Source: Octopus vulgaris (Eukaryota). Taken from it: a stretch of 64,000 nucleotides of DNA. Position 1 is the stretch's first letter. Each line of letters opens with the position of its first letter. The stretch covers positions 140,492,001 to 140,556,000 of the forward strand of contig OX597816.1 in assembly GCA_951406725.2 (NCBI GenBank). Direction: 5' to 3'. This document shows positions 24,101 through 60,440 of this stretch, in pieces. Both the position numbers and the translations under genes were made by a program. The notes beneath the pieces were generated by a model. That model ran no database searches. It was not told the origin of the DNA and saw nothing but the letters and a program-made list of their open reading frames with translations.

Positions 24101-27100
24101 AATGAAGGAGAACAAATCTGGAAATGGCCAGGATTGACTATTGCAAAGCTTATGATATGATTTCATATTCATGGATCATTGAGTGCTTAGATCTGTTTGG
24201 AATTGTGAGGAATATGTGTTTCCTGAAGAAAAGAATGGTGGGATGGAAAACTGAACTGACATCTTACAAAAAAAACTTGGGCACCCTGGGTATCAGAAGA
24301 GGGATTTTCCAGGGTGACAGCCTATTTCCATTGCTTTTTGTTCTCTGCATGATACCCATGGCCTTGCTATTTAGGAAAATGAACCTGGGGTACAAACTAA
24401 AGGAAAAATCCCAATCAATCAACCACCTCCTCTTCATGGATGATTTGAAACTGTATAGCAAGGATGAGACACAAGTGAGTTTCTTGAACACAGTTCATGG
24501 TTTTAGTACTGATATTAGAATGGAATTTGAACTCAGAAGTGCAGAATAATCTACCTAAAAAGAGGAAAGGTACAGTCCCTAGCAGGGATACAATTTCCGA
24601 ATAGAGACTTAATTAAATAAATTGAAATGGAAGGATACAAATACTTTAGTGTACTAGAGTTCCAACCGATCGTGGCCGATGCCAGACCGCTCTGGCACCT
24701 GTGGCCGTTGCCAGTGCCGCCTCGACTGGCTTCTGTGCCGGTGGCACATAAAAAGCACCACCCGAACGTGACCGATGCCAACCCCGCCTCAAATGGCTTC
24801 TGTGCCAGTGGTACATAAAAAGCACCATCCGAACGTGGCCGATGCCAGCACCGCCTCGACTGGCTTCTGTGCCGGTGGCACATGAAAAGCACCATCCGAA
24901 TGTGGCCGATGCCAGCACCGCCTCGACTAGCTTCTGTGCTGGTGGCACATAAAAAGCACCAACCGATCGTGGCCGATGCCAGACCCCTCTGGCACCTGTG
25001 CAGGTGGCACGTAAAAATCACCCACTACACTCGCGGAGTGGTTGGCGTTAGGAAGGGCATCCAGCTGTAGAAACACTGCCAGATCAGACTGGAGCCTGGA
25101 GCAGCCCCTGGCTCCCCAGACCCCGGTCAAACCGTCCAACCCGTGCTAGCGCGGAAAATGGACGTTAAACGATGATGATGATGATGAAATGAAAGAGTAA
25201 CTGAGAATGGAGTATTTCCGAAGACTGAGGTTGGTGTTGTGCTCAAAATTGACTGGATGGAATAAAATCCAAGTAGTTAATACGTGGACGACAGCATCAC
25301 TTTGGTATGGAATGGTAATTATAAAATGGCAAAAGAGAGAAATGAAGAAAATGGATACCAAGACCAGAAAAATGTTGACAGTGCACAGAAACTTCCACCC
25401 CAAGAGTGACACTGATAGGCTGTACTTGTCCAGAAGAAAGAGTGGCAGAGGTTTGATCAATTGTCAGGGCTGTACAATTTAGGAAAATAATTTAGGGTGT
25501 TATATAAAAATTGCCATGGAGCAACTGTTGAAACACATGAAGAAGGCCGGCATCATCAAAACTGAAAATTGTGTAATGCAAGAAAAATTTAAACACGAAA
25601 CGTATAAAAATCTAAGTATGTCACTAGTTTTCCAGACATGAGTTCTACTCACGTGTCATGTTTCATCAAAATTGATAAAACGATGTAGGAGGAGTTAGAT
25701 AACGCCACAAACACACCCACAGATTTCCACATATGTAGTAGATGATAGAAGATAACTATGATGGAGTTAGAAAGATGAAAACTTCAGATGAAGTAGTCAA
25801 AGTATTTCTGAGAATAGAGGACCTTTCAAATATGATCATACGAGATCGTAGAAATGCATTAGAAGATAATGCATCAAAGATTTGCTAGCATGATGAGACT
25901 AATGTTGTTGTTGAGATGACAGTGACAGTGATGGAATTAAAAATGTTTCTTTTTTTATTTGTAGAATCAATAGAACTGTATCTTACCTGAAAGGGCATAC
26001 AAGATAGCATCAGGAAAGCTGTAGGTGTATTTAGAAATAAAGGGGCTCAGTGACTTGAGATCCTAAGGAAATAGAATAAAAATAATTAAAACAGAATAAA
26101 TATAATTAAAACAGAATTACAGTTCAATCAAAAGTTTTTTTGTTAAAGTTTAATTTGATAATAAAATTTACTTTGTTTTGGATTTTATTTTTTACTGTTT
26201 TCTTTAGATACAAATGTGGGATCATAAACATCTATATAACATACATAATGTATGTATACTTTTCAAAAGTATGATGCTATGAATTTTCATTCAAAAGAAA
26301 ACTTCTATATAGAGAGTAGTGAGTCATGAGAAAGCCAAATGCATTTCAGCCTTCTTGGGCCTTATCAATAACATGTACTCACTAGTCACATGTCTAAATT
26401 AAATCTGCTCACTGTCATATCTAGGACACTGACTGATACATGCACCGATGTTGTGAATAGCCATTGGGCTTAATAAAAACTCAGTGTATGCAATCAAATA
26501 AGCATTAAATTAAAATAGCCATCTATGTATCATACTTAATACACACACACACACTGTTGAGAGACATGATGCTGTAGATTTTCACTTAAGAGAAAATCTC
26601 TTCATAGACATGCGATGTTAAAAACACAATATGCATCAGAGCATGATGAAAAATTGCCCAGACAGTGATTCACAAGAATACCAGATCCATTTCGGCCTTC
26701 TTAGGCCTAGTTATTAATCATCATTCATCATAATCATCATTTTTAAATCCACTTTTCCATGCTTACATGGGTTGGACAGGTCCTAAATCAGCCATGGTTT
26801 ATTTATTTATTTGATTTGTTTTGTTTTGTTTCATCAGTTAACCATCAACGAACCATAATCATGCCATGGTTTTCAAAAATAGCTGACCAATTAAGTTGTA
26901 GGACTGACCATGACCCCCACCCCACTAGACACAGGGATTCCGAAACTTGTTGATCAGCAAAAAAATAATGAACACTAACACCGCACTTTGGTCCCACCTG
27001 GTTCCTTACTCTCATTAGTACACTCATATACCAAATTTTCCCATGATGGGTTCACCATCTTAGGCTGCTTATGCCATACCATCCACAATGTTGCACCTAC

Positions 27101-27966
27101 TAGCTGGCACTTTACATATAAACTTTCACCTCCATAACACGGACCATACCTTCAAATCCACCACTGTATTTCTATGTAAACATAATGCGAACTGCTGTCT
27201 AAATTCACCCTTCTATAAAAAAACTCCTCCTGAGAACGATTATATTCACCTATCCACAATTAGACAAAATGACATGGTTCTCGGACTACATCACAGGAAG
27301 TCTGTAGCTTATTCCCCTTCCTATACCCAAATAATTTTAATAAGTTGTGCTTCACTAACATCTTCATGTTTGCTCCTATTCTTTTTCTGCCCTTTCAAAA
27401 AGACAAACAAACTGTACCTATTAACTGTTTCTTAAATGTATTAACCCTCCTAACCACTTAGACCCTCTGGAGAAGCCTAGAGGCATATTCATCATCCAAA
27501 CTTTATCTGCCCATCCCTGCAGAACACTGAGGAGATGGAGATGGCATGGAGGATTTCGTTGCCTCTTGGCAGAAATGGGCAAAAGGAAATAGAACCTACT
27601 GTCAATCTCATCTTTTGCTCTTCTCTGTAATATTAGTACATGCATGTGTAACACATAGTTATTACATGTGTATGTATTCTTCTAATACTTTCTAATACTT
27701 AGGAATAAATAAACATATTAGAATGTCTACTGGCTGATCTATGTCATTTTTGTATCCTCTCCATTTTCTTATTTGCCATATAAATTAAGGGTAAACCATT
27801 TTTTACCCCCACCCCCGCCCATATATAACATTGAATTGCGAGATTGGCACACAATAACCAGCACTTGGATATGAATAATTGGGCACACTACCAGCAGCAT
27901 ATTGGATAGATACTATCCCTTAGTTGGTTGGTTTCCCAACCCCTAACTCATACAGATTATATATAC

Positions 27967-28003
<37 letters not shown>

Positions 28004-31000
28004 TACTCACACACTTCACTGAACTAAATCTTTTACTCACAAAGGTTTTCACACTGGTTTCTGGTGTTTCAGAAAAAGTATTCTCTTCAAGGAGTCTCAT
28101 TATTAATCCAGCAGTTTCTGCAAATAAATGTGGCTAAAATCATTAGAAAAAAAAATATATATATATTCATGCCAGCTACAATTCTTTGTCCATAACCTAC
28201 TTACATCTGGTGGCCCAAGCACCTGAGATTTATATTTAGCAATATTTTATATCAAATATCTTATTAAACATTAGCCAAGAATGCTTAAGTTTGGTATCAG
28301 CTGATATACACAATGCCATACACACATTCAACAAAATAATCTTAGATGTAACCAAATCCATATCCTAGAAAGCAACATGAAAATACAAGTGCAATTGCAC
28401 AAAAGAAACAGCCAACTTCTTGAAAACCAGAAACAATATCAAACACAATACACCAAAGAAATAACAACAAATATGATAAACAAATAAACCAGAGGAAACA
28501 GAAAACTGGTAAACATTTGCATCTGATATAAACCTCAAAACTAACAATGAAGCACTATATAGAGCAATTATTAATATTTAGGATCACTGCTTATCATCAG
28601 AGAATCAAGGAAGTAAAAAAAGTGGTAAAAAAATTATGTTGTAACTTTGACTGTACCATATAAAGCACAACATTCACTCAGCACTTTAGCCCCTCTGTAA
28701 GACCCATCTGCATGATACTACAGCCCTCTTTCATTGTATGTATTTATCTAAACAACTAAATCTATAGTCCTTACTGGTTAACCTTATAAGGGCAGACAGG
28801 CTTCTTAGAAGGTCAGACTAGGACCTGGAAAGAAGTAAAAATATGGAACCTCAAAAGCCTTGTGCCATGAAACAAGAACAACAAAATCAAGTCACCATCA
28901 ACCCCAATTAATCAACTCTCACTGACCACCACTCTTTCCCTCATCACTAACATAATATAATGTTAAAGAAAATTAAATATCTCTCAAGTGTCAAAGGCAT
29001 CTTAAGAGTCAATGCTTAGGACTAGTGGTATCAGAAGATAACATCTGTTGAATATGTGTCTTATGGAACCTTCTTCCTTCTTGTTTTCCCAGATAACTAC
29101 AAATTTCATCATCATCATCATTTAGCGTCCGCTTTCCATGCTAGCATGGGTTGGATGGTTCAACTGGGGTCTGGGAGGCCAGAAGGCTGCACCAGGCCCA
29201 GTCTGATCTGACAATGTTTCTACGGCTGGATGCCCTTCCTAACGCCAGGATGCCCTTCCTTTTTAAATGTGTTGATTATCATAGGACTCTAAGGGGAGCT
29301 TCTAATTTATTTTTTTAACTCCAAACATACTAAGTGATTGCTTGAACCTGTTTTATTACTGGCTGTTTACCACATAGTTGGGAGTGATTAGCAATGAAAA
29401 AAGGAAGAAATGAAGAGTCCAAAATCTTACAGAGAATAGATTCCTGATATTTAACTGAACTGGAACAACATAAAATTATGTGTAGTGCTCCAAATAAACA
29501 AAGAAATACCTTGGTGACCCAATACCATATCCGCTTAACTATTTTACCTCAATATTTCCATGCTAGATACAGGGTGTCTTTTATGATGTAATATATGCTA
29601 CTTGTTATGAAATATAGGAGCACATGAAACATAACACCTTCTTATTTCTTCTCATCCTAAAACCCTAGAAAGCACAGAAGTCAAGTAAAATCTTACCTTG
29701 CATTGAACTAGGATTTGTGGAATTTGTAAAGGAACAAATCTGATCCCAGTTATCTCGAACTGAAAAGAATAAGATAAAATATCAATTATTTACAAGTCAC
29801 AAAATGTATTCTTCCCACCCTTTCCCACTTCCTAAAGAGGATATATGTATGTTATGAGACAATGAGATACTCACTGTAATCAGATCATCCATAATGACTT
29901 AATTAATCTTGTTGAGTGGTTAAGTCCACTGGAAATGGAACAGAACATTTCTTCTAGCAACGGCTGCAAGAAAAGCTACATGGTCTCATAACCTGCTGGA
30001 AATTACAACCAAATATCTCTCATATCACATCCAATGTTCTTAGAAAAGGAACTTACTGGATAATGTCTTGAAATTTGTTTGATTGTTGTCCAATAGTGTT
30101 TGATCTTGTCAGCCGTAATTTTTTGGTGTCTGTGTTACAATCCTTATCATTTCACTGGAGATACTTCTTATGGAAAAGTTTCTCTTCCAATGTTTTATTT
30201 ATCCCCAGACTGAACAGACCTATGATTGAAGACATTCAAGCCATGACTATCACAGGTTTATTTATCTAATTTTAAGATGCTGTGAATACAGAACTATGTA
30301 ATTCAATGTATTTTACCTTTTATCAAGATGGTACAGTAAGATCATCATCATCATCATCATCTTCGTTTAGCGTCCGCTTTCCATGCTAGCATGGGTTGGA
30401 CGGTTCAACTGGGGTCTGGGAAGCCAGAAGGCTGCACCAGGCCCAGTCTGATCTGGCAATGTTTCTACGGCTGGATGCCCTTCCTAACGCCAACGTGAGT
30501 GTAGTGAGTGCTTTTTACGGGCCACCGGCACAGGTGCCAGACGAGGCTGGCAAACGGCCACGATCGGATGGTGCTTTTTACGTGCCACCAGCACGGGGGC
30601 CAGGCGAGGCTGGCAATGGCCACAATCGGATGGTGCTTTTTATGTGCCACCGGCACGAGGCCAGTCGGGGCGGCGCTGATGAAAAAGATTTAACTCCTAT
30701 TTCTAGCAGGTCAACCAACCACATAGAAAATTCTTCATTAACTCATGATTTGCTCTTGTTCAATTTGTGCTGTTTATTTTTTTTTTCTTTGCTTAGTTGT
30801 TATGCCAATATTATTACTGAATTCTGAGGCATTGATATCTGCTTTCTGTTGCTGACAGACTATAGCTTCAAAGGAAGCCTTTAGCAGATCTTAACAAAAG
30901 ACTAAACGTTGCTTCACCTGAGGAGCCTTATGTGTAGGAGACAGACACAGTAGTAGTTCTTTAGATTTTGCATGTTTGTTTACTTCTGTGAGAAGGAATG

Positions 31001-48700: not shown

Positions 48701-51700
48701 GATGGCTGCACCAGGCTCCAATCTTGATCTGGCAGAGTTTCTACAGCTGGATGCCCTTCCTAGCGCCAACCACTCCGAGAGTGTAGTGGGTGCTTTTACG
48801 TGCCACCGGTACGGGGGCCAGTCAGGCGGTACTGGCAACGACCTCGCTTGAATCTTTATACACATGCCACCAGCACAGGTGCCAGTAAGGCGACGCTGGT
48901 AATGATCACGCTCGAATGATGCCTTTTATGTGCCACCAGCATGGAAGCCAGTTAGCCGCTCTGGCAACAATCATGCTCAGATGGTGCTCTTAGCACCCTA
49001 CTAGCACAGGGCACAAGTGCCAGTAAGACGAAGCTGGTAACGATCACACTCGAATGGTGCCTTTTATGTGCCACTTGCACAGAAGCTGGTTAGCTGCTCT
49101 GTCAACGATCACACTCGTATGGTGCTCTTTGCACCCCACTAGCACGAATGCCAGTCATTGAATTTGATTTCAATTTCACTTGCCTCAACAGGTCTTAGCA
49201 AGCAGAGTTTAGTGTCCAAAGAAGGAAAAGGTACGCATAAGTGGGCTGGTTACGCCCTTGGCATAGGCCACGAGGTTATGGTCTCATTTGGCTTGCTGGG
49301 TCTTCTCAAGCACAGCATATTTTGAAAAGTCTCGGTCACTAGTCATTTTCTTGGTGAGGCCTAAAGTTCAAAGGTCATTCTTGACCATTTCATCCCAGGT
49401 CTTCCTGGGTCTACCTCTTCCACAGGTTCCCTCAACCGCTAGGGTGTGGCACTTTTGCACACAGCTATCCTCATCCATTCTTGCCACATGATCATACCAG
49501 CACAGTCGTCTCTCTTGCACACCACATCTGATGCTTCTTAGGTCCAACTTTTCTCTCAAGGTACTTACACTCTGTCGAGTATGAACACTGACATTACACA
49601 TCCATCAGATCATACTGGCTTCATTCCTTGCGAGCTTACGCATGTCCTCAGCAGTCACAGCCCATGTTTCACTGCCATGTAGCATGGCTGTTCGTACACA
49701 TGTGTCATACAGTCTACCTTTTACTCTGGGCAAGAGGCCCTTTGTCACCAGCAGAGGTAAGAGCTCTCTGAACTTTGCCCAAGCTATTCTTATTCTAGCA
49801 GCTACACTTTCAGTGCACCCTTCCCCACTACTGACTTGGTCACCTAGGTAATGGAAGCTATCAACTACTTCTAGTTTTTCTCCCTGGAATGTAGCGGAAG
49901 TTGTTCTCTGCACATTTTCAGTGTTTATTGCTCCCGAGCATCTGCCACATACAAAAACTATCTTCCCAGTTAGCCTTCCGTTGATATTACTGCAACTTTT
50001 ATGTGTCCATAGCTTACACTGGGTACATCTTATAGAGTTTCTACCTATACCTCTACAACAGATCGAGTAGGGCCATCTACCTGAAGGGATTTGTGGTTTG
50101 CCTGCCCTCCTACTTATTAGGACTTTGCTTTTAGCTAGGTTGACTCTAAGGCCCTTCGATTCTAATCCTTGTTTCCACACTTGAAACTTCTCTAGTTCTG
50201 ATAGTGACTCAGCAATTAGAGCAAGGTCATCAGCATAGAGGAGCTCCCAGGGGCATCCTGTCTTGAATTCCTCCGTTATTGGCTGGAGGACTATGATAAA
50301 TAGGAGGGGGCTGAGGACTGAACCTTGGTGGACCCCTACCGCTACCCTGAATTCTTCAGTGTACTCGTTGCCAACCCTCACCTTACTGACAGTGTCCCTG
50401 TACATGGCTTGCACGGCTCTCACTAACCATTCATCTATCCCTAGTTTCCTCATTGACCACCAGATAAGAGATTAGGGGACCCTGTCGAAGGCTTTCTCCA
50501 TGTCAACGAAAGCCAGGTACAGGGGCTTATCTTTGGCTAGGTATTCTCCTGCAGCTGTCTTACTAGAAATATAGCATCAGTGGTGCTTTTCCCTGGCATG
50601 AAACCAAACTACATCTCATCCAAACTGACTCTCTCCCTAATTAGTTGGGCTATGACCCTCTCCATGACCTTCATTACCTGATCCAACAGCTCGATACCTT
50701 TGTAATTATTTGTATCTAGAGCATCACCTTTACCTTTGTAGCAATCGACTATTATGCTGCTACACCAGTCATTGGGTATGACTCCTTCATGTATCACCTG
50801 GTTAACTATACAGGTGACTAGACTATAGCTGACACTGCCCTGATATTTTGAGCATCTCTGCAGTAATTCTTGATGTGCCAGGGGCTTTCCCTGTCTTCAT
50901 ACTTTTAATTGCTTTATCTACCAAGGTACTGTCAACTCGGATAGATGGTCCACTCGGAAATTTTATCAGAACACAAATGGAAGATGATCTAACATAGCTA
51001 TGTGACACAAACCAAATTTTAACTTCTTGAATTCAACATCATCATCATTTAACATTGTATTCTATGCTGGTATGGTTGGATGATTCAACAGGACCCACCT
51101 AGCCTGAGGGCTACATTGGTCTCCATTGTCTGCTTTGATATAATTTCTATAACTGGATGTCCTTCCTAATGTCAACCTCTTCACAGAGCATATTGGGTAC
51201 TTTTTTTCATGGTACCAGTACCAGTGAGATCACAAAGTAATCAAGTAACTCACAAGACAAGACACCTCATCAGACTGAAGATGCAGTATTGAGTGAGATG
51301 GCTACATGCCTGGTGTTGGGAGACCAAAATAGGTCATAGGGACAGAAACAAGTGTCCTTCAAATATATCAACAGCATCAACATGACAGACTCCAATCTCA
51401 TAGAACACTCTATAGAGAAAAGAAGACTACTGCTCAAACAGTATTGGAACAGCCTACAAATACAGCTTGTTTAGCAGAGACTGCCATTCACACAGCAGAC
51501 TGTTCAACCATAGACAATTCTGTTCCAGTAGGGCAGATAACACTAAACCATCATCTGTGGTCATTAATTATAGATAGGGGCTAACAGGCTGTTGTAGACT
51601 CAGGTCAGGACTAACCCAAGAGATCTATGATTGAAAATATCTCATCCATGACCATCACATTTCGTTTTCCAGAAATTGTATAAAGATCACATTATCCAAT

Positions 51701-58737: not shown

Positions 58738-60440
58738 AGTCTGGCATGTAAGCATAAAGTTCATAGGGAAGCCCATCCAAACTAGGCGATTTACCCCTCA
58801 TGCAGCTAGCCATTACTTCCTGTATTTCAAAGGCTGTTATCGGCCTTTCGCAGCACTCCACCTCCGTTGCCGAGAGCCGCGTCAGTCTGTCAAAGTGGGA
58901 CGTGAAATCTATCCAGCTCACCGCTGCTCCCTAACAGTTGAGCGAAGTGCCACTGAAAGGCCGCAACATCTGTCTTAGATCAGTTATCATTTGCTCATCG
59001 TGGTCTGGCAAGGATCGGATCATAGATTTATTGCCACATCTTGCCTCTGCCATTCGGGCCCATTGACTGGTTTTTGTCTCTTCATATCTAAGTGCTCATG
59101 CCTTAGCTCTGGCAATACAAACTTTGTGTTTCTCATTGGAGAATTGGTTGAGTACCAATCTCGCTGCAAGCACGTCGGTTGTGATGCCTTGTCTAACTTT
59201 TTGACTAGCCCTGCCTCTACTCTGTTTCTTTCTACTAGTCCTTTGCTAAGGCTTATCAATTGTTTTCTAATCGCCCTTTTCAGGGCAAACCACCATTTAT
59301 TGTTCATTACTGCCCCTGTCAATGCCTTTTTAACTAGTTCACTAATCTGGTCGCTGAAATCTTTATGCACCAGCAACATGTTCAGCTTCCAGTAACCAGG
59401 TCCCCATCTGTGAAGCCTATCTAAATTGACTGTACAGATCATGAATTTGTGGTATGTGTAGTCGACTACTTTAAACTGTAGACAACCTTTGCTATCCTTA
59501 TCTGCTACTCTACAGAATGTCCTATCGAGGAAATAATCTGGATGATCCAATGTAGTTTGACCAGGTCCACACTGGAACATCCAGGAAATCCAATCAATAC
59601 CTGTCAGACATTTGGAATCGTCTGAGTAGGTTTGTGAGACTTTTGCACCCTCCTCTCATATCTACTAAACCTATATAGTCCTCCCTTACATCTAAAACTC
59701 CATTCCAATCCCCACCTAACACTAAAGAGCAGGACATTCCCAGACATCTGAAGGAATCTGGTAGTCTTGTCCCTGCCAGAGTATAGACGGCAACTAGCCT
59801 GAAAGTATGTCCTTCACTGCCTGTCATATCCAGGACTACCGACTTACCTTCCAGATCCATGAAGATCGTCTGTATTGCAAGATCCAGATTTCTATGAACC
59901 ATCACGGCGACTCCACCTCCAGCTTCCGGACGACTTGGAGATACATACACCTCATAGTCGTCAAAAATGAGTCAGAAGTCCCATGAGTCGGAGATTCTGC
60001 TTTCACTAATGGCCACTATGTCGACATTCAGTGCCTTGAAGTCCTTCAGGTGACCCCACTTCTAAAGCAACCCCAGGCCACGTACATTCATGCTACCTGT
60101 TTTGTACACGACCATGGTATCGGAAAAAGGAAAGAAAAGAAAAGAAAACTTACTTGGTTTTGTTTGGAGGGGTGGATTGCCCATCCAAACAAAACCAAGT
60201 AAGTTTTCTTTTTCTTTGGCTTGGGGTGTTTCCAACAGTAAATCACCAAGAATTCTCTTGGTGATATTCCCTCAAAAATCTCCAATTTCCTGTGAGAATT
60301 AGGTTTTTAAGTGTGTATATGTCTTTTGTGTTGTTTGAATGATTTGTATGTATGCAGGAAGGGAGATTGTGGGTATGACAAAATCGTCTGGTGTAATGTT
60401 TGTGTGTGTGTTATTATGTACTTCATTAATTCATTGTTTT
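58738..60440 (-). mobile_element. L1/Tx1-clade LINE remnant (ORF1 end; ORF2 endonuclease to pre-RT)
   Basis: MVVYKTGSMNVRGLG (ATG 60115), GGGVAV, LVLGGDWN, GPGYWKLN, GKSPSLDGLPYELY; frameshifted. Confidence 0.88.

What the first reader, a model, noticed from the sequence alone, without database searches (positions are those of the whole stretch)
26317..26710. Fossil retrozyme-like unit: hammerhead motifs 346 bp apart in the sense strand of intron 12
Seen (minus strand): copy 1 is tagtgagtacatgtta-TTGATAA-GGCC-caagaa-GGCT-GAAA-tgca-TT-tggctttct-catgactcacta, with the outer flanks pairing as an extended stem I. Copy 2 is GGCC-taagaa-GGCC-GAAA-tgga-TC-tggtattcttgtgaatcactg, with the CUGAUGA half truncated. 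Copy 1 differs from the canonical minimal type I hammerhead CTGATGA-GGCC-N6-GGCC-GAAA-CGCG-TC only by C>T/G>A transitions. Tandem units of a few hundred bp bounded by minimal type I hammerheads define metazoan non-LTR retrozymes and Penelope pLTRs, which can yield circular RNAs. An active copy here would cut the HSD17B4 pre-mRNA, so inactivation may have been favoured. This points to a ribozyme-bearing family in this genome.
Basis: partly seen in the sequence, partly recalled or inferred. Interest (0 to 1): 0.7.

Follow-up and report, generated by a model that had tools for sequence, protein, structure and literature searches.

The report
Extinct Penelope-borne retrozyme, swapped hammerhead core
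This is one decayed copy of an old, scattered family of short non-coding repeats that carry a hammerhead (self-cutting RNA) motif and were likely pasted in by a Penelope-type jumping gene; the odd core letters are the family's original, already published variant and not damage, so it is a new family of a known kind.

Summary
The motifs are there, 346 nt apart, in the sense strand of a spliced HSD17B4 intron (12th by my exon count). They bound one monomer of a dispersed ~343-bp tandem-unit family. Across 84 copies, 58 have U3-A8 and none C3-G8, a published compensated variant, and copy 1 keeps every core nucleotide. The motif has canonical, not minimal, architecture. Arms end at two internal sites about 40 nt apart; 11 of 13 scorable head-to-head insertions have one of each. 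A Penelope-like element in this genome shows the same 40-nt offset and also carries a U3-A8 hammerhead, but shares no other sequence, so the actual carrier is unidentified. The family is old (median distance 0.20) with no young copy found. Copy 1 is predicted to misfold, like 63 of 65 copies; nothing suggests selection to protect the gene. Cleavage and circles are untested. This scan has already reported young U3-A8 retrozymes with this footprint elsewhere in this genome. Verdict: new, apparently extinct member of animal non-LTR retrozymes; interest low.

The parts
26224..26711 (-). Whole insertion: about 1.4 units of the 343-bp family, one arm only
   Evidence: unit positions 316-343 + 1-343 + 1-23, then 75-159; 84% identity to the family majority over 399 nt; no second arm elsewhere in the window
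26664..26711 (-). Copy 2: 3' part of a hammerhead (helix II, GAAA, AUGGAU loop, AUC site at 26684, 3' strand of helix I); 5' core missing or overwritten
   Evidence: (D8, 76% to copy 1 over 54 nt)
26338..26683 (-). Monomer between the two predicted cleavage sites, 346 nt (would be the linear/circular RNA unit)
   Evidence: family unit 343 nt; family majority folds as a circle with z -5.0, or -7.2 with CpG-like columns read as CG
26314..26390 (-). Copy 1: type I hammerhead with U3-A8 core (UUGAUAA at 26368), helix II with G.U at 10.1-11.1, palindromic AUGCAU, AUU site at 26338, bulged and extended helix I
   Evidence: predicted to misfold (helix II probability 0.01)
26224..26337 (-). Partial second unit with a ~50-nt internal deletion; ends at the family's short fixed 3' end (unit position ~160-165)
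26062..28039 (-). HSD17B4 (MFE-2) intron holding the element in sense
   Evidence: joint 26061-28040 in 4 of 4 runs; gene domains; numbering by my exon count
25987..26062 (-). Next HSD17B4 exon, about 160 nt downstream of the element's 3' end
   Evidence: RNA-type contigs X1, X3, X4, X13

Best explanation
The segment is a 5'-incomplete, 1.4-unit copy of an old dispersed family of 343-bp non-coding tandem units, each bounded by a type I hammerhead motif with a U3-A8 core, and it was likely written into the intron by a Penelope-type reverse transcriptase/endonuclease from a circular or multimeric RNA. Shown: family, unit length, tandem layout, ancestral U3-A8 core, two fixed internal 3' ends about 40 nt apart, head-to-head arms, high age. 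Predicted: in the ancestral tandem transcript the two motifs pair crosswise as a double hammerhead through the palindromic AUGCAU loops and cut out the monomer, which closes into a rod-like circle where helix III is only 2 bp. Inferred: the borrowed enzyme primed at two sites in the middle of the unit (positions ~163 and ~203 after the cut site), one for each cut DNA strand, and ran round the circle. Since then the copies have decayed neutrally; this one is predicted to misfold and likely does nothing to the HSD17B4 pre-mRNA.
For: Family. Tandem arms of up to about 2.7 units (L086, L010). Core: 58 U-A, 10 C-A, 8 U-G, 0 C-G of 84 lettered copies; in the 35 copies from loci found with a query that stops short of the core (hand count) U3 29 of 32, A8 27 of 33. 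CpG columns show roughly 30-60% transitions, position 8 only 3 G of 53. Compensatory A-U/G-C change in the outer helix I between two subfamilies (26 A-U, 24 G-C, 13 mixed; one event, not many). Ends: 65 of 102 arm 3' ends in unit positions 140-212 against 16 of 102 5' ends; 12 head-to-head pairs, 0 tail-to-tail, in 70 loci; 11 of 13 scorable two-armed loci have one short and one long end. A Penelope-like element with a 781-aa RT + GIY-YIG frame has 27 of 31 aligned ends at two sites 40 nt apart and a UUGAUAA hammerhead in 19 of 30 GIY-YIG loci. Folding: crosswise helix I probability 0.85-0.97 in a two-motif RNA with CpG-like columns read as CG. Age: median JC 0.196, range 0.143-0.264, 64 loci.
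Against: No sequence link between the unit and any Penelope-like element seen: nothing but a separate family copy in one flank among 30 GIY-YIG loci, best E 0.25 in 12 longer stretches. End positions are blurred by 20% divergence and my short/long classes were set after seeing the data; 2 of 13 loci are short-short and 5 further two-armed loci could not be scored. The crosswise fold depends on the CpG reading: with plain majority letters its probability is 0.02, and one earlier majority gave no helix I at all. No target-site duplication was found at this copy. Cleavage, circles and expression of the family are not shown. Searches scored only 40 candidates each, so a few young copies could be missed.
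Confidence: 0.78

Rival explanations
1. The units are the detached pseudo-LTR of an extinct autonomous Penelope-like element, and the copies are 5'-truncated element ends, not a self-standing RNA circle.
For: Same footprint as truncated Penelope insertions (10.1101/2021.04.23.441226 passages); Penelope-like elements here carry U3-A8 hammerheads; Xenopus retrozymes are related to pLTRs (10.64898/2026.07.22.740005).
Against: Upstream of the hammerhead the arms run into another copy of the same unit, up to about 2.7 units, not into coding sequence; no tblastn match of 14 Penelope frames to 71 family loci or the window; the motif has the canonical shape and the unit folds as a closed rod.
Confidence: 0.14
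2. One reading: a canonical CUGAUGA hammerhead disabled by C>T/G>A changes because an active copy would cut the HSD17B4 pre-mRNA.
For: Sense orientation in an intron; copy 1 is predicted to misfold; retrozymes are under-represented in introns in Xenopus.
Against: 0 of 84 copies have C3-G8; 0 genome-wide matches to canonical-core words; this copy is among the least diverged and keeps the whole core; 63 of 65 copies also fail to fold both helices.
Confidence: 0.04
3. Copy 1 is a kept, weakly active intronic ribozyme (core of copy 1 cutting at the AUC site of copy 2 or its own AUU site) with a role in processing this transcript.
For: Whole core kept (17 of 90 copies do); helix I can be drawn with copy 2's 3' strand, 6 of 6 pairs with three wobbles; conserved intronic hammerheads exist in amniotes (PMC7229834 passage).
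Against: Predicted probability of helix II 0.01 and helix I 0.0 in the whole element. The orthologous stretch in DNA runs X18 and X19 differs at 14 sites in about 730 nt; of the 11 listed one lies in the 78-nt motif and none in the core, which is what chance gives, so no sign of special conservation, though the comparison is too close to have power.
Confidence: 0.04

Closest known systems
Animal non-LTR retrozymes (Cervera and de la Pena 2020, PMC7229834, passages and section 14 read; Li, Clavereau and Pollet 2026, 10.64898/2026.07.22.740005, parts 1-3 of 5 read), nearest the mussel 350-390-bp repeats
   Same: Non-coding tandem units of a few hundred bp, GC under 45% (37-41% here), one type I hammerhead per unit, highly self-paired monomer, co-occurrence with Penelope-like elements.
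   Different: Core is U3-A8; family is old and apparently extinct, so a filter for intact CUGANGA motifs in tandem would miss it; no pLTR homology found; cleavage and circular RNA not shown.
U3-A8 hammerheads (Perreault et al. 2011, PMC3088659, passages read; Schistosoma Cercyon variant in Cervera and De la Pena 2014, PMC4209133, parts 1-2 of 4 read)
   Same: Compensatory swap of the 3-8 core pair, seen in nature and reported active in vitro.
   Different: The Cercyon motifs are minimal (long helix II, short helix I, mostly single); this one has 4-bp helix II, 6-nt loop, 6-bp bulged helix I and sits in tandem units.
Endonuclease-bearing Penelope-like elements (10.1101/2021.04.23.441226, passages read)
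   Same: Partial tandems, inverted 5'-truncated neighbour, 30-40-bp tail on one end only.
   Different: No coding frame, no RT or GIY-YIG; no shared terminal sequence with the Penelope-like elements examined.
Rfam RF02275 Hammerhead_HH9 (conserved intronic hammerhead)
   Same: Same helix layout, bulge and loop 2 size; best Rfam match.
   Different: 25.9 bits against a cut-off of 52; multi-copy and neutrally decayed rather than single and conserved.

Membership tests
Animal non-LTR retrozyme | Short tandem units (about 150-400 bp), dimers to multimers, dispersed | tested here: met
   343-bp unit, arms up to about 2.7 units, 70 loci on many contigs
Animal non-LTR retrozyme | One type I hammerhead per unit | tested here: met
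   90 aligned motifs; helices I and II at probability over 0.85 in the family majority
Animal non-LTR retrozyme | No protein-coding frame | tested here: met
   No tblastn match of 14 Penelope frames to the window or 71 loci; unit too short and degenerate for a frame
Animal non-LTR retrozyme | Low GC, highly self-paired monomer | tested here: met
   GC 0.37-0.41, 65% paired, z -5.0 to -7.2 against up to 60 shuffles
Animal non-LTR retrozyme | Self-cleavage of the transcript | not testable with these tools
   needs an assay
Animal non-LTR retrozyme | Circular monomer RNA in cells | not testable with these tools
   only assembled contigs were available
Active retrozyme (two consecutive complete motifs, Li et al. 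2026) | Both flanking motifs complete at this locus | tested here: not met
   copy 2 lacks the 5' core
Type I hammerhead core | 3-8 pair, U4 G5 A6, A9, G12 A13 A14 A15.1, U16.1, H17 | tested here: met
   copy 1 passes with U3-A8; 17 of 90 copies do
Minimal hammerhead of metazoan PLEs | Helix II of 7-8 bp with a 5' unpaired base, helix I of 4-5 bp, poorly defined loop 1 (PMC4209133) | tested here: not met
   4-bp helix II, no extra base, 6-bp helix I with bulge and extension
Penelope-like element (autonomous) | RT and GIY-YIG frame between pseudo-LTRs | tested here: not met
Penelope-mobilised element | Partial tandem, inverted 5'-truncated arm, 30-40-bp tail on one end | tested here: met
   12 head-to-head against 0 tail-to-tail; two end clusters about 40 nt apart; 11 of 13 short+long
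Penelope-mobilised element | Terminal sequence shared with an autonomous partner | tested here: inconclusive
   none in 30 + 12 stretches examined, a small and mostly young sample of 6136 candidates

The most novel reading that the evidence does not exclude
This extinct family shows that, tens of millions of years ago, a Penelope-type enzyme already copied a 343-nt hammerhead RNA circle from two fixed internal priming sites 40 nt apart, one per cut DNA strand, without sharing any terminal sequence with today's Penelope elements; the 40-nt stagger would then be a property of the enzyme, and U3-A8 a long-standing core of both retrozymes and Penelope elements in this lineage, missed by searches that demand CUGANGA.
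Probability: 0.45. Interest if true: 0.45.

Novelty: new member of a known kind. Interest (0 to 1): 0.25.

Why it matters
Modestly. It adds an old layer to the retrozyme record of this genome and gives sequence evidence for the proposed but unproven step in which Penelope-type enzymes paste retrozymes in. It also warns that UUGANAA must not be read as decay of CUGANGA. For HSD17B4 it most likely does not matter. No cephalopod retrozyme turned up in six paper searches, and the main text of a 2026 octopus repeat annotation (PMC13282606, passages) has no occurrence of hammerhead, ribozyme or retrozyme (supplements not read); but this scan has already noted several young families of this kind in the same genome.

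Tried and rejected
Canonical-core words with the family's helix II: 0 matches. CpG decay as the source of A8: rejected. Rfam HH9 over the genome: 4 matches from 58 scored of about 128,600 candidates, none in this family, none over the cut-off; too shallow to count copies. Copy number from word counts is loose (about 2,400, upper bound about 7,400, assuming independent columns; lower if gaps cluster); I give only 'hundreds to a few thousand'. Search for a second, opposite arm in the window: none. Penelope partner by sequence: none found. The repeat at 26810-27600 looked like an RT remnant by eye; no Pfam match in six frames and no match to Penelope frames. PDB search with the 26-aa exon: nothing. 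No run was on record as RNA ('no RNA holder listed'); contigs of guessed RNA runs show the splice joints, one low-depth contig (X3, 26665-26933) covers copy 2, and none of the listed pieces covers copy 1; contigs cannot show cut ends or circles, so this says nothing on expression or cleavage. Core A's match the majority more often than body A's (243 of 260 against 3073 of 3659) but G and T do not; I do not read this as selection after insertion. Units in one tandem share minority letters twice as often as units of different loci (2.6% against 1.2%), opposite arms only slightly more (1.5%): too weak to show a single template. Rows dropped: 11 loci that duplicated a place (both loci of one place, L035 and L071, were dropped by oversight) and 9 loci of other families; arms under 80 nt; loci with 150 or fewer columns; 25 of 90 motifs with gaps. 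The paper on tolerance to 3-8 exchanges (PMC1986816) was not held, so the rate of U3-A8 in this context is unknown to me.

Full report
Observation. Both motifs are in the sequence as quoted. The predicted cleavage sites lie at 26338 and 26684, 346 nt apart; the two copies are 76% alike over 54 nt. Rfam HH9 matches copy 1 at 25.9 bits, E 0.0012, under the family cut-off; at cut-off level the window has no RNA family. The surrounding gene is HSD17B4/MFE-2 on the minus strand (Pfam domains in order). The intron 26062-28039 is spliced in 4 of 4 guessed-RNA runs, and my exon count makes it intron 12. The element is in sense and ends about 160 nt before the next exon.

It is a repeat family. The 441-nt query gave 53 matches from 40 scored of 1036 candidates, the best non-self at 72% over 365 nt; two more queries widened the sample to 71 distinct loci used for alignment. 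The unit is 343 bp and occurs as partial tandems of up to about 2.7 units. The window holds 1.4 units: the 3' part of one hammerhead, a full monomer, a second hammerhead and a partial unit with a 50-nt deletion ending near 26224.

The core is a variant, not a ruin. Of 90 aligned motifs, 84 have letters at positions 3 and 8: 58 U-A, 10 C-A, 8 U-G, 8 other, 0 C-G. In the 56 motifs not selected by likeness to the motif alone, U3 is 45 of 52 and A8 47 of 53; in the 35 from a query that stops short of the core (hand count) 29 of 32 and 27 of 33. True CpG columns show roughly 30-60% transitions, whereas position 8 has 3 G of 53, so A8 is not CpG decay. Loop 3 is ancestrally the palindrome AUGCAU. 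Genome-wide, canonical-core words with this helix II have 0 matches and the U3-A8 word has 4. U3-A8 is a known natural covariation, reported active in vitro (PMC3088659, passages) and abundant in Schistosoma Cercyon elements (PMC4209133). The layout is canonical: 6-bp helix I with a UAC bulge and a long extension, 4-bp helix II with a 6-nt loop. Two subfamilies differ by a compensatory A-U/G-C change in the outer helix, one event.

State of this copy. Copy 1 keeps every core nucleotide (17 of 90 copies do) and is the 7th least diverged of 64. It has C7>U, a G.U at 10.1-11.1, an AUU site and a U.U in helix I, and is predicted to fold into an alternative hairpin (helix II probability 0.01). Only 2 of 65 scorable copies are predicted to form both helices, so misfolding is the norm and says nothing about this intron. 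The same insertion is present in DNA runs X18 and X19 (14 differences over about 730 nt; of 11 listed, one in the motif, none in the core) and in part in X20.

Age. Median Jukes-Cantor distance to the majority is 0.196 without CpG-like columns (0.143-0.264, 64 loci; 0.23 with them), somewhat inflated by mixing subfamilies. A young copy would match the exact words; one search found 5 matches, all of a sister family, and one search found 2 decayed copies. If this genome is octopus (recalled repeat tails, earlier scan notes; species not determined), the distance fits the expansion of Penelope-like elements at JC 0.2, about 56 million years, reported for O. vulgaris (PMC13282606, passages).

How it moved. 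65 of 102 arm 3' ends fall in unit positions 140-212 (21% of the unit), in two clusters near 163 and 203; only 16 of 102 5' ends do. Adjacent arms are head-to-head 12 times and tail-to-tail never. Of 18 two-armed loci, 13 have both ends in the clusters: 11 one short and one long, 2 both short (about p 0.01 by hand, classes set afterwards). The window copy stops at the short end. This matches the published Penelope footprint of partial tandems, an inverted truncated neighbour and a 30-40-bp tail on one end (10.1101/2021.04.23.441226, passages). In this genome a Penelope-like element with a 781-aa RT + GIY-YIG frame has 27 of 31 aligned ends at two sites exactly 40 nt apart and a UUGAUAA hammerhead in 19 of 30 GIY-YIG loci. 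Against the reading: no homology between the unit and any Penelope stretch examined, so the carrier is inferred from the footprint alone. Because the fixed ends lie mid-unit and arms run back through the cleavage site, the template was likely a circle or multimer rather than a cut linear monomer (inference).

Predicted ribozyme logic. The family majority folds as a rod-like circle (z -5.0; -7.2 with CpG-like columns read as CG) with helices I and II formed. In a two-motif linear RNA with that CG reading the helix I strands pair crosswise at 0.85-0.97, the double-hammerhead form described for short palindromic helix III (PMC4209133); with plain majority letters this drops to 0.02, so the prediction is sensitive to the reconstruction. 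Nothing here tests cleavage or circles.

Comparison and novelty. All testable features of animal non-LTR retrozymes are met (PMC7229834, passages and section 14; 10.64898/2026.07.22.740005, parts 1-3 of 5); the locus is not an 'active' one by that preprint's two-motif rule. Six paper searches found no cephalopod retrozyme. Earlier notes of this scan describe several young U3-A8 retrozyme families with two fixed start points in this genome; a look-up by sequence found no note on this family. I had the U3-A8 reading before those look-ups; the 'two fixed start points' wording prompted my end analysis, which I then ran on this family.

Noticed in passing
L025-L029 (G000 C2:10207962, C6:70477784, C11:65000563, C13:80792964, C17:63277866): A second old family with the same U3-A8 core and helix II but another loop 3 and body; 61% over 249 nt to this family's unit (E 6e-9); some loci have inverted neighbours.
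   Followed up: partly
L024:1500-1570 (G000 C12:78740940-78741006, minus): A C3-G8 hammerhead whose downstream sequence weakly resembles the second family (67% over 70 nt): a possible canonical-core sister.
   Followed up: partly
L134 (G000 C16:20835000-20842000) and L135-L140: Young Penelope-like family, copies about 93-98% alike: 781-aa RT + GIY-YIG frame, an overlapping upstream frame of up to 479 aa without Pfam match, U3-A8 hammerhead in the terminal repeat, two 3' ends 40 nt apart in (TA)n.
   Followed up: partly
window 26810-27600: Another dispersed repeat (48 matches from 40 scored of 191 candidates, up to 89-90% identity, at least 1.1 kb in relatives, often with an inverted neighbour); no Pfam or Penelope match.
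   Followed up: partly
window 26720-26790 and 25040-25190: Ends of a very abundant short repeat with an (ATG)n tail; one abuts and may have overwritten the 5' core of copy 2.
   Followed up: no
window 24660-25035: 67-bp minisatellite, about 5 copies.
   Followed up: no
window 49608-50471, 59023-59971 (minus): LINE remnants in HSD17B4 introns; RVT_1 match at 49608-50471; the second reads like an endonuclease/RT remnant (by eye, no Pfam match for 59023-59655).
   Followed up: no
L019, L020, L103, L110: Further hammerhead-like words of other repeat families (both C3-G8 and U3-A8) in the flanks of fetched loci.
   Followed up: no
L010:1048-1797: Both tandem motifs carry C3 with A8 and an A at the first helix II base, shared minority letters that may come from the template.
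   Followed up: no
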